32,741 nucleotides of DNA from an uncultured Candidatus Saccharibacteria bacterium. GTDB taxonomy: Bacteria; Patescibacteriota; Minisyncoccia; Sungbacterales; HO2-52-23. Under the pieces are notes generated by a model. The model saw only the letters and a list, made by a program, of their open reading frames with translations, was not told the DNA's origin and made no database searches. Shown in pieces: positions 9,322 to 32,741 of the stretch; the stretch's first letter is position 1; every line of letters starts with the position of its first letter. The translations under genes were made by a program, and so were the position numbers. The DNA is taken from assembly GCA_964357005.1 (NCBI GenBank), contig CAYHJX010000002.1, positions 1-32,741 of the forward strand. The letters run 5' to 3'.

Positions 9322-10797
9322 TCACGCCCTTTCTGAATCGTAATCTATACTTATCTGCTTCCATTCAGAATAAAAATCAAGTGCTTGTGTTCCGGGCTCG
9401 CGCCAGCCGTTTCCGGAAAGCCCGACGCCGCCGAAGGGCATATGGGGCTCGGAACCGTGTGTTGGCCCATTTACGCGGACTACTCCTGCATGGTAGCGCC
9501 GCACGAATTCCTCGGCGCGATCGAGTGATGAGGTATGGATTGCGCCCGAGAGCTTGAATTTTGAATCATTCGCAAGGCGAATCGCTTCCTCCAAATTTTT
9601 TACGCGATATAGGACGACGACTGGCCCGAATACTTCTTTTTGCGAAATTTCGTCTTTCGGCGATACTCGTTCAAAAACCGTAGGCGCAATAAAATATCCG
9701 TTTTTATGCGCGTCGTCAGCGAGCCGCATGCCGCCTGCAAGGATCACGCCGCGCCGGCGTTTTGCTCCATCGATTGCGCGTAAAATTTCACGCATGCGCT
9801 TTTCGGAAATAATTGCGCCATAGTCGTCGGTATCCGCAGTGCCGACTTTTAGAGCGCTTACTTTCTGAAGAAAAAGTTTTTTGAACTTTTCATATACTCT
9901 TTCAAAAACGATTATGCGCGACGCGGCAGCGCATCGCTGACCTCCATCAACAAAAGCCGCGTCCACCGCCGTAGACACCGCTCGCTCCAAATCCGCGTCG
10001 TCGCACACCACAAAAGGATTTTTCCCTCCCGCTTCAATCGAAACTTTTGCGAGGCGCGATGCAGTTGCTTTCAAAATCTTTTCTCCGGTTGCGGTTGAGC
10101 CCGTAAGACTTACAAACTCAACGCGCGGATCCGCGACCAAGGGCGCGCCGACATCCGGCCCTGTTCCCTGGAGCACGGAAAGAACTCCCGCGGAAATCCC
10201 CACTTCCTTAAAAACCTTTGCATACCACACCGCGACATACGGAGTATATTCATGCGATTTCATAATAACAGCATTTCCGCACAGAAGCGCGGGAAAAAGT
10301 TTCCATGCGATTCCGGCCGCGGGATTGTTGTAGGGCGTGATAAGCGTGCCGATGCCAACGGGCTCGCGCACAAGAAATACTCGGCGATTCGGCACCGCCG
10401 TAGGAATGACTTCCCCAAAAAACCTTCTGCCTTCTCCTGCAAAGAAAAATCCGCATTCGATCGCGGCCTCCACCTCTCCCAAAGAATGTTTTTTCGATTT
10501 CCCGGATTCTAACGCAACAATTTCCGCAAGTTCCTCTTTTTGCTCTCGCATACGAAGCACCGCTTCTCTCAAGATTTTTGCGCGCTCTACAATAGAAATC
10601 TTAGACCATACATCATATCCTTTTTCTGCTGATCTGATTGCTTTTTCAACGTCTCGAACATTTCCTCGTGCAACCTGGGAAACAATCTCACCGGACGCCG
10701 GATTACATTTCAAAAAAAATTTCCCTCCGGAGGGTCGAACTTCCCGATTATCAATCCAATGAAAAACTTTCTTCGGGTAATGTGTCATATATATCAT
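9322..10797 (-). CDS. NAD(P)+-dependent aldehyde dehydrogenase family protein
   Basis: 491-aa ORF. Motifs: FPALLCGNAVIMKSHEYTP, SLTGSTATGEKI, VSIEAGGKNPFVV (the E-x-G-G-K glutamate box), and DGGQRCAAASRIIV (catalytic Cys context). TAATG stop/start overlap with the upstream GT2 at 10795-10799. Confidence 0.88.
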   Translation of the reverse strand: MIYMTHYPKKVFHWIDNREVRPSGGKFFLKCNPASGEIVSQVARGNVRDVEKAIRSAEKGYDVWSKISIVERAKILREAVLRMREQKEELAEIVALESGKSKKHSLGEVEAAIECGFFFAGEGRRFFGEVIPTAVPNRRVFLVREPVGIGTLITPYNNPAAGIAWKLFPALLCGNAVIMKSHEYTPYVAVWYAKVFKEVGISAGVLSVLQGTGPDVGAPLVADPRVEFVSLTGSTATGEKILKATASRLAKVSIEAGGKNPFVVCDDADLERAVSTAVDAAFVDGGQRCAAASRIIVFERVYEKFKKLFLQKVSALKVGTADTDDYGAIISEKRMREILRAIDGAKRRRGVILAGGMRLADDAHKNGYFIAPTVFERVSPKDEISQKEVFGPVVVLYRVKNLEEAIRLANDSKFKLSGAIHTSSLDRAEEFVRRYHAGVVRVNGPTHGSEPHMPFGGVGLSGNGWREPGTQALDFYSEWKQISIDYDSERA

Positions 10798-11711
10798 TAC
10801 TTCCTCTGAACGATTCGCTTCGCGAGCGAATACACTTCTGGAAAATCAAAAATGATGACGAAAGGAATAATATGTTTCAGAAATCGCGGATACGCATACA
10901 TTAAAAATCCAAACTTCCTCGTTACGGGAATTACGGGAGAACGGAGTATCCGATCAAAAACAATACGCGCATACCGGATATGCCTTGTCCGTTTCCCTCC
11001 TCCATAGGCCTTTCCAACCTCGGGATCATCTTTATAACGCTCTTTGATACTCTTTCGATACATCGTTTTTGAAAATAAAATATCGGGCGCCGAATAAAAA
11101 TGGGTGGAAAGAGCAGCTTCCGCGGCTATAACATGATCAAATTTAATACAGTCGGGATGAGGCCGCCGCATAATACTCTTAAGAAGCGCTGTACGGAAAA
11201 GGCCGAAACTAAGGAAGTAACTCACTTTCGGGCCAGGGAGCAATGCAAGCTTGAACACATCATAATATCCTAACCGCGTAATATCATACTTCCCAATAAA
11301 ATAGAACTCATCCATGAGTACTCCATCGTTGTATACGCGCCGGTAAGAACTCATCGCAACGCCATAATCCGGACGCGCATCAAGTGCCTTCTTCATGGTT
11401 TCAACATATGTCGGGGCCCACCAATCATCGTCGTACGCCCACATGAAATACTCACCCCGCGCCTCCTCGAGAACAAACCGGAAATTATGGAGCTGTCCCA
11501 TATTCTCTTCTTGTCGAATATACCGTACTCTCGGATCGCGCAAGGCATATTCTTTGCATATACGCTCTGTTTCGTCGTCCGAAGCATTATCCGACACAAT
11601 AACCTCTATATGCCGGTACGTTTGCGACAGTAATACATCAAAAATTCGCGGGAGGAACTGCGCACGATTGTATACCGGAAGTCCGATGCTTACAAATCCT
11701 TTAATCTTCAT
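10797..11711 (-). CDS. GT2 (GT-A fold) glycosyltransferase, soluble type
   Basis: 304-aa ORF. Motifs: VSIGLPVYNRAQFLPRIFDVLLSQTY..IEVIVSDNASDDETERIC..YIRQEENMG and FMWAYDDDWW (acidic DxD-type box). No C-terminal TM helices. Confidence 0.8.
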   Translation of the reverse strand: MKIKGFVSIGLPVYNRAQFLPRIFDVLLSQTYRHIEVIVSDNASDDETERICKEYALRDPRVRYIRQEENMGQLHNFRFVLEEARGEYFMWAYDDDWWAPTYVETMKKALDARPDYGVAMSSYRRVYNDGVLMDEFYFIGKYDITRLGYYDVFKLALLPGPKVSYFLSFGLFRTALLKSIMRRPHPDCIKFDHVIAAEAALSTHFYSAPDILFSKTMYRKSIKERYKDDPEVGKAYGGGKRTRHIRYARIVFDRILRSPVIPVTRKFGFLMYAYPRFLKHIIPFVIIFDFPEVYSLAKRIVQRK

Positions 11712-11714
11712 ATC

Positions 11715-12500
11715 CTACCTGATGCGTTTAAGAAATCCTCCGGGTGCCACGGTAACAAATAGCGACTTTTCTATTTTGTTGTCAATAATAAAATTCTTGT
11801 GTGCTTTTACAAATGCCCGCACTGCGGTCATCGGATTATTGCCGATGCCCCACGGGCGCTTTTTTGAATATTCTCGCGGCATGTATTCAACGATTGTATC
11901 ACATGCAACGATATAACTCCCTTTTGTCACAAACGGCGAGTAGAGTTCGAGCTCTTTCAAAACGTGATCATGCGTGTGGTTTGAATCAAGCAACACTAAA
12001 ACAGCTTTTGCTTCGCCGACTTCGCTACGCACGCGGGAAATAACATTCGGCGCTATTGATGACCCTTCAATAAGAGCAATGCGGCGAAATAGTGGGTGTT
12101 TCTCAATAAGCTTCCGATTGTGTCTTCGAATATCAATATCAATACCGATGACCTTTCCCGTTCCAAGAAGCTCACAAAGAGATGCATAAAAGACAAGAGA
12201 ACCGCCATGCGCGATTCCCGTCTCAACAATTACGTCGGGCCGAAGATTAAAGATCATATCCTGCATACGAATCATATCGTACGGATTCTGAATTGCCGGC
12301 ATGCCAAGCCAACGTACCTCGTAATCGAGTTTATTTCGAAGCGCAATCGTGAGCCACCGAATCGCTTCTTGTTTGAGCTTCCTTGTTTCCTTGCGTTTTC
12401 TCCGCAACACAAAACGGGATAGATGCTCGATCTCTTTTTGCGTCGGAAAATGGTATTTCTTAGCCACGGCGCAAAAATGAAACATAATCCTCAACCCCAT
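11715..12500 (-). CDS. Cephalosporin-hydroxylase (CmcI) family methyltransferase, sugar O-methyltransferase-like
   Basis: 261-aa ORF. Motifs: WLGMPAIQNPYDMIRMQDMIFNLRPDVIVETGIAHGGSLVFYASL..GKVIGIDIDIR and VLLDSNHTHDHV, characteristic of PF04989-type proteins. The start is uncertain: ATG 12500 or ATG 12485. Both overlap the 3' end of the upstream gene. Confidence 0.72.
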   Translation of the reverse strand: MGLRIMFHFCAVAKKYHFPTQKEIEHLSRFVLRRKRKETRKLKQEAIRWLTIALRNKLDYEVRWLGMPAIQNPYDMIRMQDMIFNLRPDVIVETGIAHGGSLVFYASLCELLGTGKVIGIDIDIRRHNRKLIEKHPLFRRIALIEGSSIAPNVISRVRSEVGEAKAVLVLLDSNHTHDHVLKELELYSPFVTKGSYIVACDTIVEYMPREYSKKRPWGIGNNPMTAVRAFVKAHKNFIIDNKIEKSLFVTVAPGGFLKRIR

Positions 12501-13329
12501 CCTGCCACGACGGCATCAAAATTCCGAAACCTTCCGCTTTGTGAGAATCAAGCACAGAATAGAGCGGCCTCCGAATACCAGTTGATTCCTCACCGCGCCT
12601 GACAGGAACAAGCTCCTTTTGTATATCCATACGGCGATACACTTCTTTCGCACATTCGTACCAGCTGCACGATCCGCGATTTGCAAGGTGATACAATCCG
12701 GGATCTGCCGATGTTTCCAAAAAAGATAATACCGCGCGAGCAAGATGGTCAGCGTATGTCGGATTTGCGAATTGGTCTTCGGCAACTTCAATTCGATCCT
12801 TTCCTTCTGCTTCCTTCAAAATATTTAAAACAAAATTTCCTTTTTGCGGACTTCCTATTTTCCCTCCGTAGAGTCCGTTTGTCCGAATAATGTATGCGCC
12901 TTCGGGATACATGCTTCTCGCACCATATTCCCCGGCAAGCTTCGTGATGCCGTACATTTGGAGCGGATTCGGAACATCATCTTCGGTGTATGGCGCATTC
13001 TTTCGGCCATCAAATACATAATCAGTGCTGAATGTGACAAACCGAATGCGATGCATCCTTGAGAGTTTCGCGAGATTCCGTACGGCAACGCAATTGACTG
13101 AAAAAGCTTTGACGGATTCTTTTTCGCACAAAGAAACCGCATTATATGCGGCGGTATTTATAAGAATATCCGGCTTTTCGTCCTTAGTCCTCTTCTCTGA
13201 AAGAACTTCATCCGTAATATCAAATTCCTCCCGATTGAAAGAAACTATTGAAAAACGGGAACCGCGACCAGCACGCTCAAAAGCACCCGCCAACTGCCCC
13301 CCTTTTCCAATGACAAGAATTTTTTTCAT
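12460..13329 (-). CDS. NDP-4-keto-6-deoxyhexose 4-reductase (RmlD / dTDP-4-dehydrorhamnose reductase family)
   Basis: I trimmed the start to ATG 13329 (MKKILVIGKGGQLAGAF...). That is 7 nt after the RmlC-like stop, whereas the track start 13449 would overlap that gene by 113 nt. Motifs: INTAAYNAV, FSTDYVFDG, PLQMYGITKLAGE (Y-x-x-x-K). Confidence 0.82.
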   Translation of the reverse strand: MKKILVIGKGGQLAGAFERAGRGSRFSIVSFNREEFDITDEVLSEKRTKDEKPDILINTAAYNAVSLCEKESVKAFSVNCVAVRNLAKLSRMHRIRFVTFSTDYVFDGRKNAPYTEDDVPNPLQMYGITKLAGEYGARSMYPEGAYIIRTNGLYGGKIGSPQKGNFVLNILKEAEGKDRIEVAEDQFANPTYADHLARAVLSFLETSADPGLYHLANRGSCSWYECAKEVYRRMDIQKELVPVRRGEESTGIRRPLYSVLDSHKAEGFGILMPSWQDGVEDYVSFLRRG

Positions 13330-13336
13330 GCATTTC

Positions 13337-13861
13337 TCAAAAAAGCGGCCATGACCCATCCTTTTCGCTCGCCAAAGGATGCTCGATTGGCCATGTGATT
13401 TGGAATACCGGATCGTTCCATCGGACTCCTGACGCGCATTCGGGAACATAGAACTCGGACATCAAATATTGAACCTCGCAATCATCGGTAAGCGTCTGAA
13501 AACCATGCGCAAAACCCCTTGGAATATAAAACAGTTTTTTCTCATCACCTTTCAGTTCTACTGCATACCATTTTCCAAACGTCGGCGAGCTATCTCGTAA
13601 GTCAAGCGCAACATCATAAATCGCTCCTTTCACGCACTGGACAATTTTATCCTCCTCCTTCGGAGGCCGCTGAAAATGCATTCCCCGGATAGTTCCCTTT
13701 TTTGCAGTAAAGGAGATACTCGCCTGTACAATGTCAAATCGGATGCCGTGTTTCTCAAATTCGTTCTTGCAAAAAATACGCGTAAAATATCCCCGGGGAT
13801 CTCCGCGGAGCTCCGACTCTATCACAAATAATCCGTTAAGTGGTGTAGATAAAAAAATCAT
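13337..13861 (-). CDS. NDP-4-keto-6-deoxyhexose 3,5-epimerase (RmlC cupin family)
   Basis: 174-aa ORF. Motifs: GDPRGYFTRIFCKNEF, GTIRGMHFQ, KIVQCVKGAIYDVALDLR, FYIPRGFAHGFQTL, VRWNDP. These are the canonical RmlC blocks. Confidence 0.88.
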   Translation of the reverse strand: MIFLSTPLNGLFVIESELRGDPRGYFTRIFCKNEFEKHGIRFDIVQASISFTAKKGTIRGMHFQRPPKEEDKIVQCVKGAIYDVALDLRDSSPTFGKWYAVELKGDEKKLFYIPRGFAHGFQTLTDDCEVQYLMSEFYVPECASGVRWNDPVFQITWPIEHPLASEKDGSWPLF

Positions 13862-13866
13862 CGACG

Positions 13867-15081
13867 CTAGACTATTTTTACTTTCGGGACAGGAATAATA
13901 AATTTTCCTCCTCTTCGGCGAAACAATTCCAATTCTTTCATGGCAAGCACTTCAGGATAAATATTCCAACAAAGGACGATAAGATAATCAGGATGCATTT
14001 CGGTAATCTTGTCGAGTCCAAACACTTTCATATGAGTCCCGGGCGTGTAGAGTCCTTGTTTTGCGGGAGATTTGTCAACAATATAGTCGAGGTAATTTTT
14101 CCCGATACCGAAATAATTAAGAAGTATATTTCCTTTTGCAGGCGCGCTGTATGCGGCAATCCTTTTCCCGGTACTCGTTAAGTCCTGCAGTAACGAAATA
14201 AGTTCTTTCCGTGCTTTTTCTGCTTTCGCGCGAATGAGCGAATATGTTTCACTTTTGTCGTATCCCCGATCATACTCTTGATGGAAGAATGACGTTAACC
14301 GTTCGCTCTCTGGAAATATCCCCTCATGCGAAACAAAAATCCTCACTGATCCGCCCTGCATATCTACCATATGGGCGTCGTAAAGCGCAAGACCCGCATG
14401 TGCGAAAAGATTCCTCAATGCGAGAAGCGAATAGTAAAATACATGTTCATGGTAAATCGTATCAAACTTGCCCTCGAAAAGACCTTCAATATAGGGAAAT
14501 TCAAATACCGCGGAGCCATGCGGCGCAAGGACGATTTTTACTCCCTCCACAAAATCACGGATCAAAGGAACATGGGCAAGCACGTTTACGCCGAAAAAAA
14601 GATCTGCCCGAATTCCTTTTTCGGAAAGCCGGCGTGCAAGGGCGGCGGTAAAAAATTCAGGAATCGTTTCAATTCCGCCTTTATTCGCAATCTTCGCAAT
14701 ATTTTCCGCCGGATCAATACCGAGTGTTCGCACGCAAAGCGCCTTGAATTCCCGCAAAAGCACGCCGTCATTACTTCCCGCCTCGACAACTAAATGATCT
14801 TTGGTGAGGCCAAATCGTTCCGAAAGGGTTGATGCGGTTTTCTTCGAATGCTCGACTACCGTGGCAGAGACAGACGATGCATAGAGGTATGTTCGAAAAA
14901 GTTCTTCCGGCGGGACGGCATCAACAAGCTGCACTAAAAAACAGGACGGGCAAAAGCCGACCTCCAATGGATATCTTTTTTCGTGTACCAGTTCTCTCTC
15001 GCCGAGAAACGAGTTTACAAGTGGCATCGTTCCGAGCGAGAAAAATGGAGTTATCTTCAATTCACACGATCGACAATCCAT
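13867..15081 (-). CDS. NDP-hexose C-methyltransferase (TylC3 / NovU-type; Zn-ribbon + class I SAM MT + C-MT C-terminal domain)
   Basis: I trimmed the start to ATG 15081 (MDCRSCELKITPFFSLGTMPLVNSFL..GFCPSCFLVQL, a C-x-x-C...C-x-x-C zinc-ribbon domain). That is 5 nt after the RfbG stop. The SAM core is LVVEAGSNDGVLL, and the C-terminal part ends VLCWNIYPEV. Confidence 0.78.
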   Translation of the reverse strand: MDCRSCELKITPFFSLGTMPLVNSFLGERELVHEKRYPLEVGFCPSCFLVQLVDAVPPEELFRTYLYASSVSATVVEHSKKTASTLSERFGLTKDHLVVEAGSNDGVLLREFKALCVRTLGIDPAENIAKIANKGGIETIPEFFTAALARRLSEKGIRADLFFGVNVLAHVPLIRDFVEGVKIVLAPHGSAVFEFPYIEGLFEGKFDTIYHEHVFYYSLLALRNLFAHAGLALYDAHMVDMQGGSVRIFVSHEGIFPESERLTSFFHQEYDRGYDKSETYSLIRAKAEKARKELISLLQDLTSTGKRIAAYSAPAKGNILLNYFGIGKNYLDYIVDKSPAKQGLYTPGTHMKVFGLDKITEMHPDYLIVLCWNIYPEVLAMKELELFRRRGGKFIIPVPKVKIV

Positions 15082-15086
15082 GGAAA

Positions 15087-19967: not shown

Positions 19968-19971
19968 GCCA

Positions 19972-26149: not shown

Positions 26150-27547
26150 TTACACCAATGAAAGAATAAAATGTGTCAGCCGCTCGGACGATTTTCCATC
26201 AAAGGGCTCGATAAACCGCTCTCGGATGCAATCCCGCCCCCCGAGATCCTTTTGGGGATTTTCCAAGTAGGTACGTATTGCATCCGCTAACTCACGCTCG
26301 GAATGCGGGCGCCGCATGCCGCCGCAGTTTCCCACTTCTTCCCAGTCAAAACACATGCCTCCATGAACTTTCGCTAAATAACGCCCGTAGGGAAACTTTT
26401 TTCTCCCTTCAAACGCAAACGCTATGACCGGCTTTCCAAACGCAATAGCATCGAGAATAATCGTTCCCGATGTGGTAAGCAACAACTCGCTATGATACAA
26501 AGAATTTATTTGGTGAGAAATATCAGACAAATCTTCTTTTGGTTGTCCGGCGCGCGGGATCTTGCTTGCGCGCACTTCATCCGCAACCACATGGCGCAAT
26601 GGCTTCAGACGGCTCAACGAAAAATTGTAATACGGGTGGTTACGAAAAATAAATACGAGATCGGATGGCAACACGCCCTTCTCGACCATATCATCGAGCA
26701 TCTCGGCAAGAGAAACCTCCAACTCATGCAAAATTCCGCCTACCGCGCCAAACAGTATAACCCGTTTCGAAGAATCTATTCCAAATCGTTTTAAAAATTC
26801 ATCACGGGGCGCCAATAGCTCTTTATCCGCATACCAATCATAGTGCGGAAAACCAGTGATAACAACTCTGTCCGCGGGGAAAAAATTATATTGCACGGCC
26901 ATTTCCTTAACATACATGCTGGGAACAACCATATAATCCGGATGCATCAACATGAAACCAATGTTGCTTAACGCGTCCCACCCGCGAATACCCGCAATCG
27001 TCTTAATTCTTCTGCGTTTAGCTTCACAAAGCACAGGTACGTCATATGACGTACTCGCAATATTGGTACTTAAAACAAGTACGGGATTATATCTATCAAA
27101 AATTTCTATAATATACTTATAAGCAGGAATATGCGACACTCGCTCGCGCACAATTCTCTGAATTATCCTCGCAAGGGGCCGCCAAGTTCCAAACGTATAG
27201 GCAATGATCCTGTGCAACACTATACGATAGAGCGGCACACGGGAAATGTGACGCTCTACAAGGCGATGCCATGCGCGACTCAACTTTTGATGAAACGCCG
27301 AGCGGGAAAGAGAAATTAACATCTCAAAATATTTGGAGGTTTTCACTCGGGGAATAGCGACTATGTCTGCACCTGCGCCCCCGAATTCCGATCGGTATCC
27401 GGCTTCTTCCGCTTTCGAGACAATCAAAACGACTTTCACATCCGGGCGTTTTGCAAGCTCTGCCACAAAACCGCTCCGCAAAAAATATCGCGGTATCATC
27501 GGTCCTCCTGCAGTAGAAATAAAAATAACCTTTTTTTGTGTATCCAT
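26150..27547 (-). CDS. Unassigned GT-B-like protein, paralogue C
   Basis: 465-aa ORF with ATG 4 nt after the ABC gene stop. Blocks: FDRYNPVLVLS, AKRRRIKTIAGIRGWDALS, ITGFPHYDWY, GIDSSKRVILFGAVG, FRNHP (His codon 26636-26638), TTSGTIILDAIAFGKP, YLENPQKDLGGR, EPFDGKSSERL. Confidence 0.6.
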   Translation of the reverse strand: MDTQKKVIFISTAGGPMIPRYFLRSGFVAELAKRPDVKVVLIVSKAEEAGYRSEFGGAGADIVAIPRVKTSKYFEMLISLSRSAFHQKLSRAWHRLVERHISRVPLYRIVLHRIIAYTFGTWRPLARIIQRIVRERVSHIPAYKYIIEIFDRYNPVLVLSTNIASTSYDVPVLCEAKRRRIKTIAGIRGWDALSNIGFMLMHPDYMVVPSMYVKEMAVQYNFFPADRVVITGFPHYDWYADKELLAPRDEFLKRFGIDSSKRVILFGAVGGILHELEVSLAEMLDDMVEKGVLPSDLVFIFRNHPYYNFSLSRLKPLRHVVADEVRASKIPRAGQPKEDLSDISHQINSLYHSELLLTTSGTIILDAIAFGKPVIAFAFEGRKKFPYGRYLAKVHGGMCFDWEEVGNCGGMRRPHSERELADAIRTYLENPQKDLGGRDCIRERFIEPFDGKSSERLTHFILSLV

Positions 27548-27551
27548 TTCT

Positions 27552-29354
27552 TTACACTGATAATGCGGATCTTTTCACATGATATGCTTTATAAAAATTT
27601 GATTGTGGATCCTCAAGGAGCTTTCGCGGATTACCTTCTTCTATAATCCTGCCGCCGTGAAGCACGTATACCCTGTCAGCATCCAGTACCGTTGATAAAC
27701 GGTGCGCAATCATAATGACCGTTACTTTCCCATGAAGCTGCTGAAGCGCTTTCTGAATGAGTGATTCTGATTCATTATCCAAAGCGCTCGTTGCCTCATC
27801 AAGGACAAGAATCTCGGGGTGATGCGCAAGCTCCCGTGCAAGCACAATCCGTTGTCGCTGTCCCGCCGAAAGCATAATACCACGATCTCCCACCATAGTA
27901 TCAAGACCATCGGGAAGCGACTGAACATATTCGTAGATATGCGCTTCTTTTACGGCATTCTCGATATCGGTTTCTCCAATCCCTGTACGATAAAAAAGAA
28001 TATTGTTTCTGATAGTGTCATTCAAGAGAAAAATATCCTGCGGTACATATCCAAGATGCATCCGCCATTCCCGTACCCCTATGGAAGAAATATCTTTGCC
28101 GTCAATCATGATTTCTCCCTTCTCGGGAGTAAAAAGACGAAGCAAAAGATCAACTAATGATGTCTTTCCTACGCCTGAAGGGCCCACCACTGCAATCGTA
28201 TCTCCCTTATGAACGGTTATCTGAATTCCTGAAAGCACCGGTGGTCCACTGTGATAAGAAAAAAATAAATCTCGGAATTCAAGCTCATTTTGAAACGAGA
28301 AGGGTTCGTCTCCAAGATCATGTTCTCGATATTTTCTCAATGAATCCATAAGATAAATAATATCTGCGGTATGGGGCAGCAAATCAGAGATGGTATGGAG
28401 CGATCGCTGTATTGACTCCACGTCAACAAAAATTTTATGTATCAAATAAATAGTTGCGATAAGTGCTGCAAGATTAAATCCGGGAGTTCTATAGGACAAC
28501 ACGAAAATGACCGTGATGAAAACAAAACTTATCGGCTGGATGAATGCAGCGCTTGACGCCCGGAGCATGTAGCTTCTTATATTGAGCCGGCGCAGTATCG
28601 CAAGCAATTCCGCGGTCTTTTCCCGGACCCCATTTTCAACTGCTGCAGCCTTTACCACTTTCATGCCGATGACATGCTCACTTAAGTGTTGTGAGGCGTC
28701 TTTTTCAACCTGGTTCACGCGGTACGCCGCCGCTTTTGCAATTTTTCCAAGCGGGAGAAGCAAAATAAGGAGGAGTATTCCCCCGCCCATAGTGATAAGC
28801 GTGATATTCGGCGAAATATTCACTGAAACCAAAAAATACATACATACCGTCGTAAGGGCTAAAATAGCGTGTCCAAACGACATGAAAAGCGCGGCGCCCT
28901 GATCCACACCTCGGATAAAAGCGCTCTGGATATATCCGAGTTTCTGCCGCAATAAAAATCGCCATTCTGCTACGAGCGCCAACGAAAAAAGCTCCTCCCG
29001 CATATGGCGCTTATAGTCAGTAACAATTTTAGTGCGCACGTAGCTAAAAAGAAGAATGGCACATGCTTTAAAAATAAAAAGTGCTACCATAAAACTTAAA
29101 AGTGATGTCACGCTCAATGGAAACGGAAGGTATCCGTTGATAGCGATGATTAATCGAGACTAGAAATTATCGCTTGCGTGGACGCTTCCTCCAGCGATGA
29201 GGGAAAACAAAGGGATCATCGCGCTAATGCTCACACTTTCGAAAAGTCCGCCTAAAAACCCCAATACCACCATAACTGCAATCCTCCCCTTATATCTCCC
29301 GAAGGCGCGATAAAATATATAGAAATTTTTTGACGCTTTAATCCGCTCAATCAT
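27552..29354 (-). pseudogene. MsbA-type ABC exporter (fused TMD-NBD) interrupted by a single in-frame TAG at 29160-29162
   Basis: Track ORFs 29160..29375 (TM1: GRIAVMVVLGFLGGLFESVSISAMIPLF) and 27552..29117 (TM2-6 plus NBD: Walker A GPSGVGKTS, signature LSAGQRQR, Walker B ILVLDEATSALD, H-loop IAHRLS) are in the same frame. Only TAG separates them, followed by 14 sense codons (SRLIIAINGYLPFP). The joined length of about 600 aa is typical. The likely start is ATG 29354. Confidence 0.7.
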
Positions 29355-30711
29355 GATTTTTGAGAAAATGATCAAGAAAACGAAAAAATCTTTCGGCGTT
29401 TTTTCCGTCTAATGCTGAATATTTTTCTTCGATGAATTTTCGCAGATTTGAATTTTTCTTCCACCTCTGTTGTTCTCCGGGAATCTTCGTACCATAGTCG
29501 AGATACTTATGTAACATACCAACAAGCATCTCTCTGTTATAAGCAATCTCGTGAAAAGTACTTGTTGCGGGACTTAACAACGCTGCCTCTTCCATGCGGC
29601 GTCCCGAACTCAAACCAAGATCGCTCGCCTCCGCCCACCACGGCACCACAACAGCAACATCTGCAATAAGCGCATCGAGGCAAGACGTTGAATTAAACCC
29701 TACAAGCACCCGGGGACGCTTTGCGAGAAAATACTCCATTGGTCCGGTTACTACCTGAAAATCAGGAAATGACCTTTTGATAGTAACTATCTCGCGTACG
29801 TCTCGACATTTTATCGTGATATGCGTTCGCAGAATTTCATCCCTATAGAGCGCTTGAAGGACCTCGCGCCAAAGAGTTGCTGCGCCGTACGAAGGATCTT
29901 GAAATGCTGCAACAAGAATAAATGGCTCTTCTTGATTTTGACCCGCCTCGGGCGACTCGGAAATTTCAACAAGACGGTCAACGCGTGGACAGCCAGTTAC
30001 GAACGATTGCGATGCGGTTACAGCACGAGCAGCAATAAAAACATCCTTTGCGTACTCGTTATAAAATAATACCGCATCGCCATCATAGCGAAACTGCGCT
30101 TTTGTGTATATTTCCACTGTTTCCTCTTTATAGAATTTCGAGTAGATGATTGATTCCTTATAGAGCGAAACGAACACTCCGCCGCACTTTTGTATGGCAA
30201 AAACCCATGGATATTCCTGAGCATAATCAATGAGTCCGGTCAAAATAACGCGGACACGAATACCTGTTTGCTTCTCGATAAAATACATTATGCCTTCATA
30301 TATGCGTACCATTCGCTCTGTAAATTCGCGATAGTGATTCCGATGGGCGTAAAATCCCGTCTGAACAGCAAATCCAGCAGGCCACACGGCTTTCGTAAGA
30401 AGTGCACGGACGAAACTGGGGTACGACAGTATGGTATACGAAAGGTGATGCGCTTTTTGGTATTGCCGCAAAGCATCTTTGTCATCGTTAAAAATACGCC
30501 GATCCATTGCCAAAAGAACGACCCCAGAAGACGGACGCGCGCACTCTTCACGATTATTAGAAATAACAAGAAAGGCAATGAGTCGAGAGATTGCGGAATC
30601 AAGATGCAACCACCATAAAATCCGCACTCCGTACACCAAAAGGGTCTGTTTTGCAACGGGACGCAACAGACCCTTGAAAAAAGAAATGACTCTTGTAGAT
30701 ATGCGTTTCAC
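29347..30711 (-). CDS. Hypothetical protein, distant relative of paralogues A-C (GT-B-like) lacking the H-P motif
   Basis: 454-aa ORF with a GTG start at 30711. Its blocks occur in the same order as in A-C: VILTGLIDYAQEYPWVFAIQKCGGVFVSLYKE corresponds to ..AKRR.IP...R.WDN. DAVLFYNEYAKDVF...FVTGCPRVDRL corresponds to LLQNE...VVGFPQND. VLVGFNSTSCLDALIADVAVVV corresponds to ITSGSTMALDAVALGKP. Confidence 0.45.
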   Translation of the reverse strand: MKRISTRVISFFKGLLRPVAKQTLLVYGVRILWWLHLDSAISRLIAFLVISNNREECARPSSGVVLLAMDRRIFNDDKDALRQYQKAHHLSYTILSYPSFVRALLTKAVWPAGFAVQTGFYAHRNHYREFTERMVRIYEGIMYFIEKQTGIRVRVILTGLIDYAQEYPWVFAIQKCGGVFVSLYKESIIYSKFYKEETVEIYTKAQFRYDGDAVLFYNEYAKDVFIAARAVTASQSFVTGCPRVDRLVEISESPEAGQNQEEPFILVAAFQDPSYGAATLWREVLQALYRDEILRTHITIKCRDVREIVTIKRSFPDFQVVTGPMEYFLAKRPRVLVGFNSTSCLDALIADVAVVVPWWAEASDLGLSSGRRMEEAALLSPATSTFHEIAYNREMLVGMLHKYLDYGTKIPGEQQRWKKNSNLRKFIEEKYSALDGKNAERFFRFLDHFLKNHD

Positions 30712-30726
30712 TAAAATCGCGAAAGC

Positions 30727-31800
30727 CTAGACGATTAAATCCCATGCAAGGGGCGTGCCGCGTTCAATATCTTTTGCAGCGGCTTTCCCGATAATTTCTT
30801 CATAGTGCTTGGTATGAAGGCCGTTTGCGGGACGAATGGAGCGCGCGTTTTCTTTCGTGAATACCTCTCCTTTTTTCATATCCTTCACGACAAACAGTGA
30901 TCTTCTAAAACGCGTATTGTATCGTTCCTGTTCAGTCGCCGGTCCGTAGTGCGGCGCGCCGAGCATTGTTTCGTGCTTTCGTATGGTAGCAACCATTTCC
31001 TGTAACTCCTGTGGTTCGATGGAAAACTTCGCGTCAGGACCGCCGTCGCTCCTTCGCAGAATAAAATGCTTTTCAATAATTGCGGCGCCGTGCGCCGCCG
31101 CAATAATAGGAATCTCAATGCCGCCATTATTATCAGAAAACCCCGCCACCACGCCGAATCGTTCCTCAATATCCCGCATTGTTTTTAAATGCATAACCGA
31201 AGGATCGGGGTCTCCGGTGTAACCTGTCACACAATGCAAAATCGCAATTTCTTTGGCGCCGTTTTCACGCAGTGTTTTCAGCGCAAGTTCAATATCTTCA
31301 AGCGATGCGTATCCGATAGACATAATAACCGGCTTCCCGGTCCGTGCGATTTTTCTTAAAAGGGTTACGTCATTCACTTCGTATGACGCAACTTTGTAGC
31401 AAGGGACATCCATTGATTCAAGCAGATCAACTGCCGTCTCATCAAAGGGTGTTGAAAATAAAAAAATCCCTATTTCGTCGGCAATTTTTTTTAGTTTTGG
31501 CTGCCAATCCCACGGTGTATATGCTGTTTGATACAGCTCGTATAGCGTCTTCCCTTTCCAATCGTCAGGATTATCCTTCCCGCCAACCAAAAACCATTCT
31601 TTATTGGAATCAATCGTTATTGTATCCGGCGTATATGTTTGCAGTTTAACTGCGTCTGCCCCTGCTTCTTTTGCGGCCTTAATCATTGCGACCGCCTCAT
31701 CATATTTTTGATGGTGATTTGCAGATACCTCTGCCACAATAAAGCAAGGTTTCCCTTGTCCAATCTCGCGCCCGCCAATGTGAATCAGGGATGTTTTCAT
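30727..31800 (-). CDS. pseI: NeuB-family nonulosonate synthase, pseudaminic acid synthase (PseI)-like
   Basis: 357-aa ORF. Motifs: KPCFIVAEVSANHHQKYDEAVAMIKAAKEAGADAVKLQTYTPDTITIDS..LYELYQTAYTPWDW..FSTPFDETAVDLLE..YKVASYEVND..GFSDNN..IIEKHFIL..DAKFSIEP..RSLFVVKDMKKGEVFTKENARSIRPANGLH. It follows my recollection of Campylobacter PseI block by block, including the ...QTYTPD... and ...RS[IV]RP..GL motifs. Confidence 0.82.
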   Translation of the reverse strand: MKTSLIHIGGREIGQGKPCFIVAEVSANHHQKYDEAVAMIKAAKEAGADAVKLQTYTPDTITIDSNKEWFLVGGKDNPDDWKGKTLYELYQTAYTPWDWQPKLKKIADEIGIFLFSTPFDETAVDLLESMDVPCYKVASYEVNDVTLLRKIARTGKPVIMSIGYASLEDIELALKTLRENGAKEIAILHCVTGYTGDPDPSVMHLKTMRDIEERFGVVAGFSDNNGGIEIPIIAAAHGAAIIEKHFILRRSDGGPDAKFSIEPQELQEMVATIRKHETMLGAPHYGPATEQERYNTRFRRSLFVVKDMKKGEVFTKENARSIRPANGLHTKHYEEIIGKAAAKDIERGTPLAWDLIV

Positions 31801-31810
31801 AATTCATAAA

Positions 31811-32518
31811 CTATCTCCGCCAATATACCAGCTCAAACGCTTCCGCAAGAGGAAACCCCGACTGTCCCCCTCGTACTTTCGCGAGCGCCTCAAGATATTC
31901 TTTTGATCGAGGGTGGGGAAACACCCGAATCTCCCCGGTATACTCTTTCATGGCGTCCCATTTTTTTTGAAATAATTTCTTATCAAGAGCAACAAATACA
32001 TTAGGGCTAAAAATGTCCTTACCGAAACTCCATTCTGTTGAAGAAGGTATTTCAGACGCAAATACTTGCTCAAGCGGCAGAGAATGTGCGGGTAGTGGTC
32101 GAACTGCGGCCTCAATAGCTTCACGAGTCCTTCGATGGTCAATATTTACATCAGAATAATGATGCGTATAAATAATGGTCGGTTTCAATTCCTGCATAAC
32201 CTCTTCAATCGTATGCACAATATCTAAAAGAGACACAGAATCGAACTTGTTATCGGGAAAATCTTTTAAAATAAGACGCTCAACTCCCAGTGCCTTATTT
32301 GCACGCCTCGCGTCCTTTTTTAGTTGCTCCAAAATCCTGGTCTTTTCAATTTCCGAAAGCCCGGCCCGCGCCCGCACTCCCTCCCCAAGAATCAAAACCC
32401 AGACACGGTCTCCCGCGGCCGCGTGCTTTGCAATAGTGCCTCCGCATCCCAAAACCTCATCATCGGGATGCGCCACAACCACAAGAATTCTTTTTTTTCG
32501 ATCAGCTTTTTTCTTCAT
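31811..32518 (-). CDS. PIG-L / LmbE family N-acetyl-sugar deacetylase
   Basis: 235-aa ORF. ILVVVAHPDDEVLGCGGTIAKH is the zinc-binding A-H-P-D-D-E signature. A second block, HHYSDVNIDHRRT, follows. Confidence 0.85.
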   Translation of the reverse strand: MKKKADRKKRILVVVAHPDDEVLGCGGTIAKHAAAGDRVWVLILGEGVRARAGLSEIEKTRILEQLKKDARRANKALGVERLILKDFPDNKFDSVSLLDIVHTIEEVMQELKPTIIYTHHYSDVNIDHRRTREAIEAAVRPLPAHSLPLEQVFASEIPSSTEWSFGKDIFSPNVFVALDKKLFQKKWDAMKEYTGEIRVFPHPRSKEYLEALAKVRGGQSGFPLAEAFELVYWRR

Positions 32519-32741
32519 GAAGTTTACCCTTAATTAGAACGCGGGCAGAGACGGTATTGTTTTTAAATTCGGCATCCGTAAACTCCAGCCGGTTGCCATT
32601 GTATTCAATAAACGCCCTTGGATATCCTTCCGCATCAAGCATCCGAATGAAATCGTATAGTTTTTTCGAGGTTAGATTTTTCGGGATTTCGCTCTCTTCG
32701 GACCTGCGCCTTTTAAAAAGAACGACTTTCCCTTTCTGCGG
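32502..32741 (-). CDS. Partial CDS (5' end outside window); C-terminal 79 aa, possibly a sugar N-formyltransferase-like protein
   Basis: Absent from the ORF track. Hand translation from base 32741 gives PQKGKVVLFKRRRSEESEIPKNLTSKKLYDFIRMLDAEGYPRAFIEYNGNRLEFTDAEFKNNTVSARVLIKGKLHEEKS, with a TGA stop at 32504-32502. The pattern PQ..(x)..RR.pE.S.I...........YDFIRML.A.GYP.AF resembles the end of the formyltransferase catalytic domain (remembered pattern only). It overlaps the PIG-L start by 17 nt. Confidence 0.35.
   Translation of the reverse strand, partial: PQKGKVVLFKRRRSEESEIPKNLTSKKLYDFIRMLDAEGYPRAFIEYNGNRLEFTDAEFKNNTVSARVLIKGKLHEEKS

What the first reader, a model, noticed from the sequence alone, without database searches (positions are those of the whole stretch)
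9322..32741. 23-kb co-directional gene train in which every recognisable sugar-activating enzyme is a cytidylyltransferase
From the right window edge down to 9322, about 24 genes lie on the minus strand. Most junctions are 0-15 nt gaps or overlaps. The only nucleotidyltransferases present are RfbF (CTP:Glc-1-P, 16169..16936) and two NeuA-like CMP-sugar synthetases (17808..18563 and 22327..23097). I see no RmlA, GalU, ManC or GlmU type enzyme.

The transferase complement is one soluble GT2 plus the four HP/TagF-like proteins. Export appears to go through an MsbA-like ABC protein. I see no Wzx, Wzy or Wzz, and no initiating phosphoglycosyltransferase.

A glycoconjugate assembled only from CDP- and CMP-activated building blocks (a C-methyl deoxyhexose plus two different nonulosonic acids, O-methylated) is not a standard O-antigen, capsule or teichoic acid layout. 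The acceptor is open: lipid, protein such as pilin, flagellin or S-layer, or wall polymer.
Basis: inference. Interest (0 to 1): 0.75.

Follow-up and report, generated by a model that had tools for sequence, protein, structure and literature searches.

The report
Sialic-acid-like surface glycan locus, CPR bacterium
This stretch is a large gene cluster from a tiny, uncultured (Patescibacteria/CPR-type) bacterium. It most likely builds a methylated surface sugar chain rich in sialic-acid-like sugars, using an uncharacterised family of transferases that is widespread in these organisms.

Summary
From 9322 to the contig end, 24 genes lie on the minus strand. The only nucleotidyltransferases are an RfbF-like enzyme and two CMP-nonulosonate (NulO) synthetase-like enzymes. 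No Wzx, Wzy, Wzz or phosphoglycosyltransferase is present.

- NulOs are always CMP-activated.
- The window is a whole 32.7-kb contig that cuts the pseudaminic acid (Pse) module.
- The left part encodes families that normally act on UDP-sugars.

The real signal is a conserved module of Patescibacteria. It consists of TagF-fold GT-B proteins (three paralogues plus one remote relative), CMP-synthetases, a NeuB-type synthase with an adjacent phosphatase, and an ABC or Wzx flippase. All four TagF-like proteins hit best, but far below cut-off, the NCBIfam model named after BFO_1060, the strain 92A2 counterpart of the Tannerella forsythia Pse/Leg transferase.

Best model: CMP-NulO transferases build a lipid-linked, O-methylated glycan. 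It also carries a CDP-derived 3-C-methyl-6-deoxyhexose and is then flipped outward. Acceptor and initiating enzyme remain unknown.

The ABC gene carries an in-frame TAG. I rate this a new variant of a known kind, of moderate interest.

The parts
32520..32741 (-). C-terminal fragment of an Fmt-like formyltransferase, cut by the contig end. Probably tailors an amino-NulO precursor.
   Evidence: Pfam Formyl_trans_C_2, E 2e-22. Formyltransferases also lie next to the PseI homologue in L018 and upstream of the TagF-like gene in L006.
31811..32518 (-). PIG-L family de-N-acetylase.
   Evidence: Pfam PIG-L, E 1e-29. Only weak BshB-like NCBIfam hits. A PIG-L gene also lies in the PseI-containing locus L018.
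30727..31800 (-). Pseudaminic acid synthase PseI.
   Evidence: TIGR03586 PseI, 432 bits against a cut-off of 340.
29347..30711 (-). Remote TagF-fold relative (454 aa). Candidate pseudaminic acid transferase.
   Evidence: No Pfam hit. hhalign against the TagF-like family: 97.8 %, E 6.8e-13 over 294 columns. Best NCBIfam hit BFO_1060 family, E 1.6e-5. Homologues lie just downstream of PseG-PseI-PseH genes in L015, L036 and L037.
27552..29354 (-). MsbA/PglK/HepA-type ABC exporter (6 TM + NBD), interrupted by an in-frame TAG at 29162-29160.
   Evidence: ABC_membrane + ABC_tran; HepA/MsbA/PglK models, all below cut-off. The N-terminal 64 codons align with full-length homologues of 583-597 aa.
26150..27547 (-). 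TagF-like GT-B paralogue C (465 aa). Candidate CMP-NulO transferase.
   Evidence: Glyphos_transf 44.7 bits. BFO_1060 family, E 1e-8. 34 % identical to paralogue B. Fused to a B-type module in P0158.
25438..26121 (-). TylF-type O-methyltransferase.
   Evidence: Pfam TylF, E 9e-28. A 52 % identical copy holds the same position in L007, and a 54 % copy lies upstream of the TagF-like gene in L012.
24063..25433 (-). TagF-like GT-B paralogue B (456 aa). Candidate CMP-NulO transferase.
   Evidence: Glyphos_transf 22.7 bits. BFO_1060 family, E 5e-8. AF2 model pLDDT 92 with a GT-B fold. Next to CTP_transf_3 in about 18 of 27 related loci.
23171..23965 (-). Orphan polytopic membrane protein (264 aa), function unknown.
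   Evidence: 5 hydrophobic segments. AF2 pLDDT 88, helical bundle of about 8 long helices. No significant PDB match. 21 homologues; the only named one is a Nealsonbacteria (CPR) MAG protein. Two examined homologues lie inside NulO clusters. Bracketed by promoter-like and terminator-like sites.
22327..23097 (-). CMP-NulO synthetase-like cytidylyltransferase (CTPb).
   Evidence: CTP_transf_3. PseF best hit, 121 bits, below cut-off. Follows the TagF_B-type gene in most related loci.
21773..22339 (-). KdsC/YrbI-type HAD phosphatase. Inferred ulosonate-phosphate phosphatase.
   Evidence: KdsC and KDN-9-P phosphatase models, below cut-off. PDB KdsC and BT1713-type hits. Replaced by His_Phos_1 phosphatases beside or near the CMP-synthetase/NeuB pair in L007, L010 and L019.
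21179..21763 (-). KapD/RNase_T-like DEDD exonuclease. Role in the locus unknown.
   Evidence: Pfam RNase_T; KapD model below cut-off. A 55 % identical copy lies in L010.
19972..21069 (-). NeuB-type NulO synthase (NeuBx). Inferred NulO-9-phosphate synthase.
   Evidence: NeuB + SAF. TIGR03569 329 bits, below the 400 cut-off. 55-75 % identical copies in L004, L007, L008, L010, L011, L013, L014, L021 and L031.
18615..20045 (-). TagF-like GT-B paralogue A. The true start is probably M27, near 19967. Candidate CMP-NulO transferase.
   Evidence: blastp to paralogue B, E 9e-57. BFO_1060 family, E 1e-8. The ABC-TagF_A-CTPa order recurs in L001, L006, L010, L021 and L024.
17808..18563 (-). CMP-NulO synthetase-like cytidylyltransferase (CTPa).
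   Evidence: CTP_transf_3. PseF best hit, 134 bits, below cut-off. Fused to an SDR in L001.
16971..17801 (-). SDR oxidoreductase, partner of CTPa. PtmA-like from my own knowledge of model PRK09186.
   Evidence: adh_short_C2. Best NCBIfam hit PRK09186. A CTP-SDR pair in L036 and a fusion in L001.
16169..16936 (-). Glucose-1-phosphate cytidylyltransferase-like (RfbF).
   Evidence: TIGR02623 275 bits, full length, cut-off 300.
15087..16190 (-). CDP-glucose 4,6-dehydratase.
   Evidence: TIGR02622 429 bits against a cut-off of 278.
13867..15165 (-). Sugar 3-C-methyltransferase (TcaB9/MtmC/KijD1 type).
   Evidence: Methyltransf_13 and Methyltransf_14. PDB 4rv9, E 6e-78.
13337..13861 (-). RmlC-type 3,5-epimerase.
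   Evidence: TIGR01221 184 bits against a cut-off of 156.
12460..13449 (-). RmlD-type 4-ketoreductase. The true start is probably near residue 40.
   Evidence: TIGR01214 253 bits against a cut-off of 224.
11715..12500 (-). CmcI/rhamnosyl-type O-methyltransferase.
   Evidence: Pfam RMNT_CmcI, E 2e-83.
10797..11711 (-). GT2 glycosyltransferase without membrane helices. Candidate transferase for the CDP-hexose.
   Evidence: Glycos_transf_2. No predicted TM segment. TuaG/PglI/WcaA-like, below cut-off.
9322..10797 (-). Aldehyde dehydrogenase.
   Evidence: Aldedh, E 7e-144. Contiguous with SDR and transketolase-like homologues in L004.
5880..8006 (-). Transketolase-like ThDP enzyme (708 aa). Linked elsewhere to the SDR and the aldehyde dehydrogenase.
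   Evidence: Transketolase_N, Transket_pyr and Transketolase_C domains. A 55 % identical copy follows the aldehyde dehydrogenase in L004.
4457..5905 (+). GT-C (PMT_2/ArnT-like) membrane glycosyltransferase. Candidate extracytoplasmic transferase.
   Evidence: PMT_2. About 9 hydrophobic segments. GT-C genes recur near TagF-like genes in L011/L019, L014 and L020.
624..3769 (-). DegT aminotransferase (2663-3769), ArnC-like polyprenyl-phosphate GT2 with C-terminal TM helices (1637-2653) and GFO/IDH/MocA oxidoreductase (624-1640).
   Evidence: Pfam and NCBIfam; TM segments. DegT and GFO precede the TagF_B-type gene in L006, L010, L023, L025 and L028.

Best explanation
The contig comes from a Patescibacteria (CPR, Parcubacteria-like) genome. 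It carries a modular locus for a lipid-linked, heavily methylated surface glycan rich in nonulosonic acids (NulOs).

**Shown by tool results**
- The gene families.
- The relationship among the paralogues.
- The conserved neighbourhoods in related loci.

**Inferred from those**
1. *Donor supply, three branches.*
   - (a) Glc-1-P goes to CDP-Glc, then to the 4-keto-6-deoxy form. This is 3-C-methylated, 3,5-epimerised and 4-reduced, giving a CDP-6-deoxy-3-C-methyl-L-hexose. It is O-methylated by the CmcI-type enzyme.
   - (b) A NeuB-type synthase condenses PEP with a phosphorylated hexose. An adjacent phosphatase removes the phosphate. CTPb then makes the CMP-NulO. This is a Kdn-like or animal-like "9-phosphate" route.
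   - (c) This is a pseudaminic acid branch (PseI with de-N-acetylase and formyltransferase tailoring). Its early genes lie beyond the contig end.
2. *Assembly.* The four TagF-fold GT-B proteins act as CMP-NulO transferases, not polyol-phosphate transferases. The 454-aa protein is the Pse-specific one. Paralogues B and C work as a pair. The soluble GT2 adds the C-methyl hexose.
3. *Export.* The finished lipid-linked glycan is flipped by the PglK/MsbA-type ABC exporter. Related loci use a Wzx-type flippase instead.
4. *Attachment.* The acceptor (protein or wall polymer) is not identified. The nearby GT-C enzyme is the only candidate for this step.
For: **Origin.** The window is a complete 32,741-bp NCBI contig. 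Named relatives of its orphan proteins are nearly all Patescibacteria: Sungiibacteriota, Yonath-, Adler- and Nealsonbacteria, and 'Saccharibacteria' MAGs.

**TagF-like proteins.**
- Three are paralogues. The fourth is related at profile level.
- The AF2 model has pLDDT 92.4 and a GT-B fold.
- The family profile hits the TarL structure at E 8e-5.
- All four hit best the BFO_1060 glycosyltransferase model. BFO_1060 is listed as the strain 92A2 counterpart of the genetically supported T. forsythia Pse/Leg transferase (PMC5420450).

**Neighbourhood.**
- About 18 of 27 independent related loci have CTP_transf_3 next to the TagF-like gene, often with the NeuB-type synthase.
- Homologues of the 454-aa protein lie just downstream of PseG-PseI-PseH in three loci.
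- B+C-type and A+A-type tandem fusions exist, and so does a TagF-methyltransferase fusion.

**Phosphorylated intermediate.** The phosphatase beside or near the CMP-synthetase/NeuB pair is HAD/KdsC-type in the window, L001 and L004. It is His_Phos_1 in L007, L010 and L019.

**Lipid-linked intermediate.** A flippase sits next to the TagF-like gene. It is ABC-type in the window, L001, L006, L007, L010, L021 and L024, and Wzx-type in L004, L019 and L020. L018, retrieved through the 264-aa membrane protein, also carries an ABC exporter.

**CDP-hexose branch.** Shown.
Against: - No biochemical data exist for any member of this family.
- The BFO_1060 hits score 24-35 bits against a cut-off of 200.
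- The D/E-D/E-G sialyltransferase motif is absent. The HP motif is absent from the 454-aa protein.
- B. subtilis SpsB, a TagB-domain protein next to legionaminic acid genes, is not needed for Leg transfer (PMC7439481). Neighbourhood is therefore not proof.
- No initiating transferase or ligase was found in the window or in any related locus.
- The ABC gene has an in-frame stop in this assembly.
- CTPa has no obvious dedicated synthase.
- The substrate of the NeuB-type synthase is unknown.
- The CDP-hexose and Pse blocks are not conserved with the core, so they may feed a different product.
Confidence: 0.62

Rival explanations
1. The train is a glycan island. Several independent modules (CDP-hexose block, core NulO block, Pse block, Und-P-aminosugar/GT-C block) feed different glycoconjugates, not one product.
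For: - The CDP-hexose genes are absent from the related loci, apart from C-methyltransferase homologues in L020 and L027. PseI/PIG-L/formyltransferase do not occur in the loci retrieved through the TagF-like query.
- The CDP-hexose block lies between SDR and aldehyde dehydrogenase genes that are contiguous in L004.
- There are gaps of 51-109 nt, and a promoter-like and a terminator-like site flank the 264-aa membrane protein gene.
- In L020 a C-methyltransferase sits with its own small GT2 and GT-C.
Against: - Every gene but one (the DEDD exonuclease) fits glycan synthesis or export.
- Most junctions are 15 nt or less.
- Only one exporter is present.
- DegT and GFO genes from the left block are directly adjacent to the TagF-like gene in five other loci.
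Confidence: 0.25
2. The TagF-like proteins are ordinary teichoic-acid-type enzymes. They transfer glycerol- or ribitol-phosphate from CDP-alditols, and the NulO genes only decorate that polymer.
For: - Pfam Glyphos_transf hits for two paralogues.
- The profile hits TarL.
- Public annotation calls them 'CDP-glycerol glycerophosphotransferase family'.
Against: - No TagD, TarD, TarI or TarJ-type gene occurs in the window or in any annotated related locus.
- The Pfam scores are marginal (22.7 and 44.7 bits), and two of the four proteins have none.
- The constant partner is CTP_transf_3, not a CDP-alditol enzyme.
- The best NCBIfam model is the NulO-transferase family.
Confidence: 0.05
3. The TagF-like proteins use the CDP-6-deoxyhexose as a sugar-phosphate donor and build a phosphodiester-linked polymer. 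This would be a truly "CDP-driven" glycan.
For: TagF-fold enzymes transfer the phosphate-bearing moiety of CDP donors (established knowledge). The window carries a CDP-hexose pathway next to paralogue A.
Against: The RfbF/RfbG/RmlC/RmlD genes are absent from all other loci that carry the same TagF-like family. A dedicated GT2 sits at the end of the CDP-hexose block.
Confidence: 0.04
4. The TagF-like proteins glycosylate a protein (for example a pilin or S-layer protein) directly in the cytoplasm, as Maf proteins do for flagellin, with no lipid carrier.
For: - No initiating phosphoglycosyltransferase or ligase was found in any locus.
- All four proteins lack convincing membrane helices.
Against: - A flippase (ABC or Wzx) is the most constant non-biosynthetic neighbour.
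- No candidate substrate protein gene lies in the loci.
- The closest known relatives act on a lipid-linked oligosaccharide (PMC5420450).
Confidence: 0.06

Closest known systems
[quoted passage not shown]
   Same: - Soluble GT-B/TagB-like proteins of about 450 aa.
- Encoded beside NulO synthesis genes and a methyltransferase.
- An HP motif is present in three of the four window proteins.
- This is the best NCBIfam model for all four (PMC5420450).
   Different: - Scores are 24-35 bits against a cut-off of 200, so these are not members.
- There is no D/E-D/E-G motif.
- There are four copies instead of one.
- The host is a Patescibacteria-type organism, not Bacteroidota.
- The flippase is an adjacent ABC exporter.
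Bacillus subtilis sps locus (SpsA GT2, SpsB TagB-like, SpsC-G legionaminic acid genes, SpsI-L rhamnose genes)
   Same: It combines a TagB-like protein, a GT2, a NeuB-type synthase, a CMP-synthetase and RmlC/RmlD-type 6-deoxyhexose genes in one co-directional cluster (PMC7439481; the locus composition is from my own knowledge).
   Different: - The sps locus uses dTDP-rhamnose (RmlA/RmlB), not a CDP-hexose.
- It has one TagB-like gene.
- SpsB was shown not to be required for Leg transfer.
- It has no exporter gene.
Wall teichoic acid pathway (TagB/TagF or TarL with the TagGH ABC transporter)
   Same: GT-B TagF-fold enzymes use cytidine-nucleotide donors on a lipid-linked acceptor at the cytoplasmic face. 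An ABC transporter then exports the product (established knowledge; TarL hit).
   Different: - The donors here are inferred to be CMP-ulosonic acids, not CDP-alditols.
- No TagD, TarIJ, TagO or TagA is present.
- The ABC protein is a type IV MsbA/PglK-like half-transporter, not the ABC-2 TagGH type.
9-phosphate NulO routes: Bacteroides thetaiotaomicron Kdn-9-P synthase and phosphatase (BT1714/BT1713), and animal Neu5Ac-9-P synthase and phosphatase
   Same: A NeuB-type synthase lies in the same block as a KdsC-family phosphatase and a CMP-synthetase.
   Different: - The substrate is not known.
- Both the synthase and the phosphatase score below the curated cut-offs.
- In some relatives the phosphatase belongs to an unrelated family, His_Phos_1.
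CDP-vinelose (CDP-6-deoxy-3-C-methyl-2-O-methyl-L-talose) of Azotobacter vinelandii (own knowledge; no paper in the held library)
   Same: It is a CDP-linked, 3-C-methylated, O-methylated 6-deoxy-L-hexose. That is exactly the product class expected from RfbF, RfbG, a 3-C-methyltransferase, RmlC, RmlD and an O-methyltransferase.
   Different: No gene cluster for vinelose is known to me, so this is a chemical analogy only. The stereochemistry and O-methyl position here are not determinable from sequence.
Campylobacter PglK / Helicobacter Wzk-type ABC flippases of lipid-linked oligosaccharides
   Same: The same ABC_membrane + ABC_tran half-transporter architecture. A PglK model is among the top hits.
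   Different: - All models score far below cut-off.
- No PglB, PglL or WaaL-type transferase lies in the window.
- The gene is interrupted by TAG in this assembly.

Membership tests
BFO_1060 family NulO glycosyltransferase (NCBIfam NF046086) | Whole-protein score at or above the curated cut-off (200 bits). | tested here: not met
   32.4, 34.7, 34.5 and 24.2 bits for 24063, 26150, 18615 and 29347. It is the best model for all four, but only as a remote hit.
BFO_1060 family NulO glycosyltransferase (NCBIfam NF046086) | Bacterial sialyltransferase HP motif and D/E-D/E-G motif, as reported for Tanf_01245. | tested here: inconclusive
   An R-x-H-P motif is present in three paralogues and in 18 of 21 family members. 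It is absent from the 454-aa protein. No D/E-D/E-G motif occurs in any of the four.
BFO_1060 family NulO glycosyltransferase (NCBIfam NF046086) | Encoded next to CMP-NulO biosynthesis genes. | tested here: met
   CTP_transf_3 is adjacent in about 18 of 27 related loci. Homologues of the 454-aa protein lie just downstream of PseG-PseI-PseH.
BFO_1060 family NulO glycosyltransferase (NCBIfam NF046086) | Transfer of Pse or Leg from the CMP donor (genetic or enzymatic proof). | not testable with these tools
   This needs enzyme assays or mutants.
TagB/TagF CDP-glycerol glycerophosphotransferase (Pfam PF04464) | Pfam gathering score reached. | tested here: inconclusive
   26150: 44.7 bits. 24063: 22.7 bits against a cut-off of 22.1. 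18615 and 29347: no hit.
TagB/TagF CDP-glycerol glycerophosphotransferase (Pfam PF04464) | GT-B two-Rossmann fold. | tested here: met
   AF2 pLDDT 92.4. Foldseek top hits are GT-B enzymes and epimerases with TM about 0.55. The profile hits TarL 8va1 at E 8e-5.
TagB/TagF CDP-glycerol glycerophosphotransferase (Pfam PF04464) | Co-occurring CDP-glycerol or CDP-ribitol supply genes (TagD, TarD, TarI, TarJ). | tested here: not met
   None is present in the window or in the annotated related loci.
Pseudaminic acid pathway | PseI synthase. | tested here: met
   TIGR03586, 432 bits against a cut-off of 340.
Pseudaminic acid pathway | PseB, PseC, PseH, PseG and PseF. | tested here: not met
   - None of these passes a model in the window.
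- The DegT at 2663-3769 scores 211 against the PseC cut-off of 423.
- Both CTP_transf_3 proteins score below the PseF cut-off.
- The contig ends 0.9 kb upstream of PseI, so absence is not informative.
CDP-hexose pathway (RfbF/RfbG) | Glucose-1-P cytidylyltransferase and CDP-glucose 4,6-dehydratase. | tested here: met
   The dehydratase scores 429 against a cut-off of 278. The cytidylyltransferase scores 275 against 300, is full length, and its next best model has 88 bits. The pair is adjacent with a 22-nt overlap.
Wzx/Wzy-dependent O-antigen or capsule locus | Wzx flippase, Wzy polymerase, Wzz and an initiating WecA/WbaP-type transferase. | tested here: not met
   No Polysacc_synt, Wzy_C, Wzz, Bac_transf or Glycos_transf_4 domain occurs in any window ORF of 90 aa or more.
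ABC-exporter-dependent lipid-linked glycan pathway (PglK/MsbA type) | Intact ABC_membrane + ABC_tran half-transporter. | tested here: inconclusive
   The domains are present and align over the full length with homologues. Codon 65 is TAG, and TAG is a normal stop for 8 of 30 window genes.

The most novel reading that the evidence does not exclude
Patescibacteria have tiny genomes and a Gram-positive-like envelope. They may make an anionic wall or surface polymer whose backbone is built from CMP-activated nonulosonic acids. The builders would be a large, dedicated radiation of TagF-fold enzymes: paired or fused modules giving alternating linkages, fed by a minimal three-enzyme "9-phosphate" NulO route. 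This would be a functional analogue of teichoic acid or polysialic acid and a new class of bacterial cell-envelope polymer.
Probability: 0.2. Interest if true: 0.75.

Novelty: new variant of a known kind. Interest (0 to 1): 0.5.

Why it matters
**Transferase gap.** Very few transferases for bacterial nonulosonic acids are known. Here is a family of at least 2,300 clusters at 50 % identity (E ≤ 1e-30) that is systematically tied to CMP-NulO synthesis genes. It is a concrete, testable source of such enzymes.

**CPR biology.** CPR bacteria are thought to live attached to host cells, and their surface chemistry is almost unknown. Spending more than 20 kb on a methylated, NulO-rich glycan would be a large investment if this genome is as small as that of its closed relative (923 kb). 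It suggests the glycan matters for attachment or for evading hosts and phages.

**Pathway leads.** The locus also points to a bacterial 9-phosphate NulO route and to genes for a CDP-linked 3-C-methyl sugar.

Tried and rejected
- **Extending the contig.** Exact-protein look-ups of the PIG-L protein and of P0001 found nothing on record. The window is the full contig.
- **Naming the organism.** The cluster look-up gave no names or accessions.
- **PDB sequence searches** for the TagF-like protein, the 454-aa protein and the 264-aa protein found nothing useful.
- **First genome scan.** A closer alignment worked.
- **The 264-aa membrane protein.**
  - The fold search gave no significant match, only weak SWEET/PQ-loop likeness.
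  - No homologue was found in the TagF-centred loci.
- **Literature.**
  - Searches for NulOs in Patescibacteria/CPR found nothing relevant.
  - A search for vinelose found nothing.
- **RNA genes.** Rfam and tRNA scans of the window were empty.
- **Initiating phosphoglycosyltransferase.** A search across ten annotated related loci found none.
- **Considered and rejected.**
  - Recoding of TAG: TAG ends 8 of 30 genes here.
  - A canonical teichoic acid locus: there are no CDP-alditol genes.

Full report
**1. What is in the sequence**

The window has 30 complete ORFs that correspond to recognisable genes, plus one cut at the right edge. 27 of the 30 are on the minus strand, and GC skew is negative throughout.

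From the right edge to 9322 the minus-strand series runs in this order:
- a formyltransferase fragment
- a PIG-L deacetylase
- PseI (TIGR03586, 432 bits against a cut-off of 340)
- a 454-aa protein with no Pfam hit
- an ABC exporter
- TagF-like protein C
- a TylF O-methyltransferase
- TagF-like protein B
- a 264-aa membrane protein
- a CMP-synthetase-like protein (CTPb)
- a KdsC-type HAD phosphatase
- a DEDD exonuclease
- a NeuB-type synthase
- TagF-like protein A
- a second CMP-synthetase-like protein (CTPa)
- an SDR
- an RfbF-like protein
- CDP-glucose 4,6-dehydratase
- a 3-C-methyltransferase
- RmlC
- RmlD
- a CmcI-type O-methyltransferase
- a GT2 without membrane helices
- an aldehyde dehydrogenase

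Of the 23 junctions, 17 are overlaps or gaps of 15 nt or less. The others are 28-109 nt.

No Wzx, Wzy, Wzz or phosphoglycosyltransferase domain is present.

Three corrections apply:
- The ABC gene starts at 29354 and has an in-frame TAG at 29162-29160. This codon aligns with V, P or I in full-length homologues, and TAG is an ordinary stop in 8 of 30 window genes.
- Only three of the "four" TagF-like proteins are paralogues by blastp. The fourth is a remote relative (hhalign 97.8 %, E 6.8e-13).
- The window is a complete 32,741-bp contig, so the right end truncates the Pse module.

**2. Where it comes from, and what is conserved**

The TagF-like protein B has 136 relatives in the word-indexed search (E ≤ 0.001, 120 listed). 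Nearly all are unnamed. The named ones are Sungiibacteriota and an unclassified 'bacterium' MAG. The genome scan returned loci from MAGs labelled:
- Sungiibacteriota, Yonathbacteria and Adlerbacteria
- Saccharibacteria (six)
- Gammaproteobacteria (two)

Sungiibacteriota belong to the Parcubacteria group of Patescibacteria.

A profile search of 1.84 billion representatives finds 2,305 clusters at E ≤ 1e-30 and 5,542 at E ≤ 1e-10. This is a large, uncharacterised family.

I compared all window proteins with 35 related loci by tblastn. Recurrent sub-modules emerge:
- [TagF_B - CTPb - phosphatase - NeuB-type synthase].
- [ABC - TagF_A - CTPa, sometimes with an SDR]. CTPa and the SDR are fused in the closed Sungiibacteriota genome (L001).
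- [DegT - GFO - TagF_B] in five loci. This links the left end of the window (624-3769) to the same system.

L007 repeats almost the whole core order of the window.

The RfbF/RfbG/RmlC/RmlD genes do not recur in any related locus. Only C-methyltransferase homologues appear, in L020 and L027. PseI, PIG-L and formyltransferase recur only in loci found through the 264-aa membrane protein (L017, L018). In L004 the SDR, aldehyde dehydrogenase and transketolase-like genes are contiguous. In the window the 6.1-kb CDP-hexose block sits between the SDR and the aldehyde dehydrogenase. The locus is therefore modular.

**3. What the TagF-like proteins are**

- The AF2 model of protein B is confident (pLDDT 92.4, pTM 0.90) and has a GT-B fold.
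- The family profile reaches the TarL structure (E 8e-5).
- Pfam Glyphos_transf is marginal or absent.
- All four proteins hit best the NCBIfam model "BFO_1060 family glycosyltransferase" (E 1e-8 to 2e-5, far below cut-off).

BFO_1060 is listed with Tanf_01245 among the candidate NulO transferases of T. forsythia strains. Tanf_01245 and TFUB4_00887 are about 445 aa, carry a TagB domain, and are needed to add the terminal Pse or Leg derivative to the O-glycan (PMC5420450).

Three of the four window proteins keep an R-x-H-P motif. None has D/E-D/E-G.

Homologues of the 454-aa protein lie just downstream of PseG-PseI-PseH in three unrelated contigs. In the window the protein follows PseI. This makes it the best candidate for a Pse transferase.

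Some metagenomic members are tandem fusions (C-type + B-type, or A + A). One is fused to a methyltransferase. This argues that the paralogues cooperate and that methylation is coupled to transfer.

A caution: B. subtilis SpsB is also TagB-like and lies beside Leg genes, yet it is dispensable for Leg transfer (PMC7439481).

**4. Donor pathways**

*CDP branch.*
- The RfbF-like protein scores 275 against a cut-off of 300, over its full length. The adjacent dehydratase scores 429 against 278.
- The C-methyltransferase is closest to sugar 3-C-methyltransferases MtmC, KijD1 and TcaB9 (E 6e-78).
- RmlC and RmlD pass their models.
- The predicted product is a CDP-6-deoxy-3-C-methyl-L-hexose that is then O-methylated. 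From my own knowledge this is chemically the class of CDP-vinelose.

*Core NulO branch.*
- The NeuB-type synthase is below the NeuB cut-off. It is 55-75 % identical to copies in nine other loci.
- A phosphatase lies beside or near the CMP-synthetase/NeuB pair: KdsC-type HAD in the window, L001 and L004, but the unrelated His_Phos_1 in L007, L010 and L019.
- Replacement by a non-homologous phosphatase at the same place is good evidence for a phosphorylated ulosonate intermediate.
- Neither NeuC nor a kinase is present in the window. I therefore favour a Kdn-like product made from a hexose-6-phosphate. This is inference.

*Pse branch.* PseI is present with de-N-acetylase and formyltransferase tailoring. 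PseB, PseC, PseG, PseH and perhaps PseF are expected beyond the contig end.

*CTPa-SDR pair.* The same pair lies beside NeuB and NeuC in L036. Its substrate in the window is open.

**5. Export and attachment**

The gene next to the TagF-like genes is an ABC half-transporter in the window, L001, L006, L007, L010, L021 and L024. It is a Wzx-type flippase in L004, L019 and L020. L018 also carries an ABC exporter. Two unrelated flippase types in the same place argue for a lipid-linked intermediate made in the cytoplasm.

No initiating phosphoglycosyltransferase or ligase was found in any locus. One exception is a Wzy_C-TPR protein at the edge of L018.

GT-C enzymes (PMT, PMT_2, YfhO, GT87) with small GT2 partners recur nearby. 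The window has an ArnC-like GT2 at 1637-2653 and a PMT_2 protein at 4457-5905. They are the only candidates for an outside transfer step, but they could equally serve a separate single-sugar decoration.

**6. Transcription units**

The strongest promoter-like match (10 of 12) is at 24023-23995. The strongest terminator-like hairpin is at 23172-23150. Together they bracket the 264-aa membrane protein gene. Promoter-like sites overall are no more frequent than in shuffled sequence, so this is only a hint. Together with the 51-109-nt gaps, the train probably holds several transcription units.

**7. Verdict**

The emphasis on "cytidylyl-only" is partly an artefact of NulO chemistry, contig truncation and reliance on housekeeping UDP-GlcNAc.

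What is interesting is the conserved Patescibacteria module: multiple TagF-fold candidate NulO transferases, a phosphatase-dependent NulO route, and an adjacent flippase.

This is a new variant of a known kind, namely NulO glycoconjugate loci with TagB-like transferases. It is not a new category. Interest is about 0.5. It would be higher if the product proves to be a NulO-based wall polymer.

Noticed in passing
window 29160-29162 (within 27552-29354, minus strand): There is an in-frame TAG at codon 65 of the ABC exporter. Homologues have V, P or I there and are intact at 583-597 aa. It is either a nonsense mutation, which would leave an exporter lacking TM1 at best, or an assembly error.
   Followed up: partly
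window 23171-23965 (minus strand): An orphan 264-aa polytopic membrane protein.
- It has 21 homologues; the only named one is from a CPR (Nealsonbacteria) MAG.
- Two examined homologues lie inside NulO clusters (L017, L018).
- The AF2 model is confident, with no significant structural match and only weak SWEET/PQ-loop likeness.
- It appears to have its own promoter-like and terminator-like sites.
   Followed up: partly
window 21179-21763 (minus strand); L010 17617-18192: A KapD/RNase_T-like DEDD exonuclease sits between the NeuB-type synthase and the phosphatase. A 55 % identical copy lies just downstream of TagF_A in L010. No role in glycan synthesis is evident.
   Followed up: no
window 16971-17801, 9322-10797, 5880-8006; L004 9115-13304: The SDR, aldehyde dehydrogenase and a 708-aa transketolase-like protein are contiguous in L004 (64, 49 and 55 % identity). 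In the window they are separated by the CDP-hexose block and an EamA-like gene. They may form a conserved trio that makes a substituent or precursor. Their function is unexplained.
   Followed up: partly
P0158, P0159, P0253 (metagenome proteins): Tandem fusions of about 900 aa join two TagF-like modules (C-type + B-type; A + A). An 846-aa protein fuses a TagF-like module to a methyltransferase.
   Followed up: partly
L007 10303-10944; L010 12550-13182; L019 13924-14538: His_Phos_1 phosphatases lie beside or near the CMP-synthetase/NeuB pair in these loci. The window has a KdsC-type HAD phosphatase in that block instead. This is a non-orthologous replacement.
   Followed up: yes
L006 18182-20317: A 711-aa fusion of a pyruvate-kinase barrel, a PUA-like domain and ATP-sulfurylase lies directly after the CTPa homologue. 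This hints at sulfation or local PEP supply in a related locus.
   Followed up: no
window 1-620: There is no intact ORF here. The plus strand is purine-rich (AT skew about 0.23) and holds only short ORF fragments. It may be a decayed gene or a non-coding contig end.
   Followed up: no
window 8155-9264 (plus strand): A membrane protein with about 7 hydrophobic segments and a weak EamA-like signal lies on the opposite strand between the transketolase-like gene and the train. A clear EamA transporter follows the TagF_B homologue in L006.
   Followed up: no
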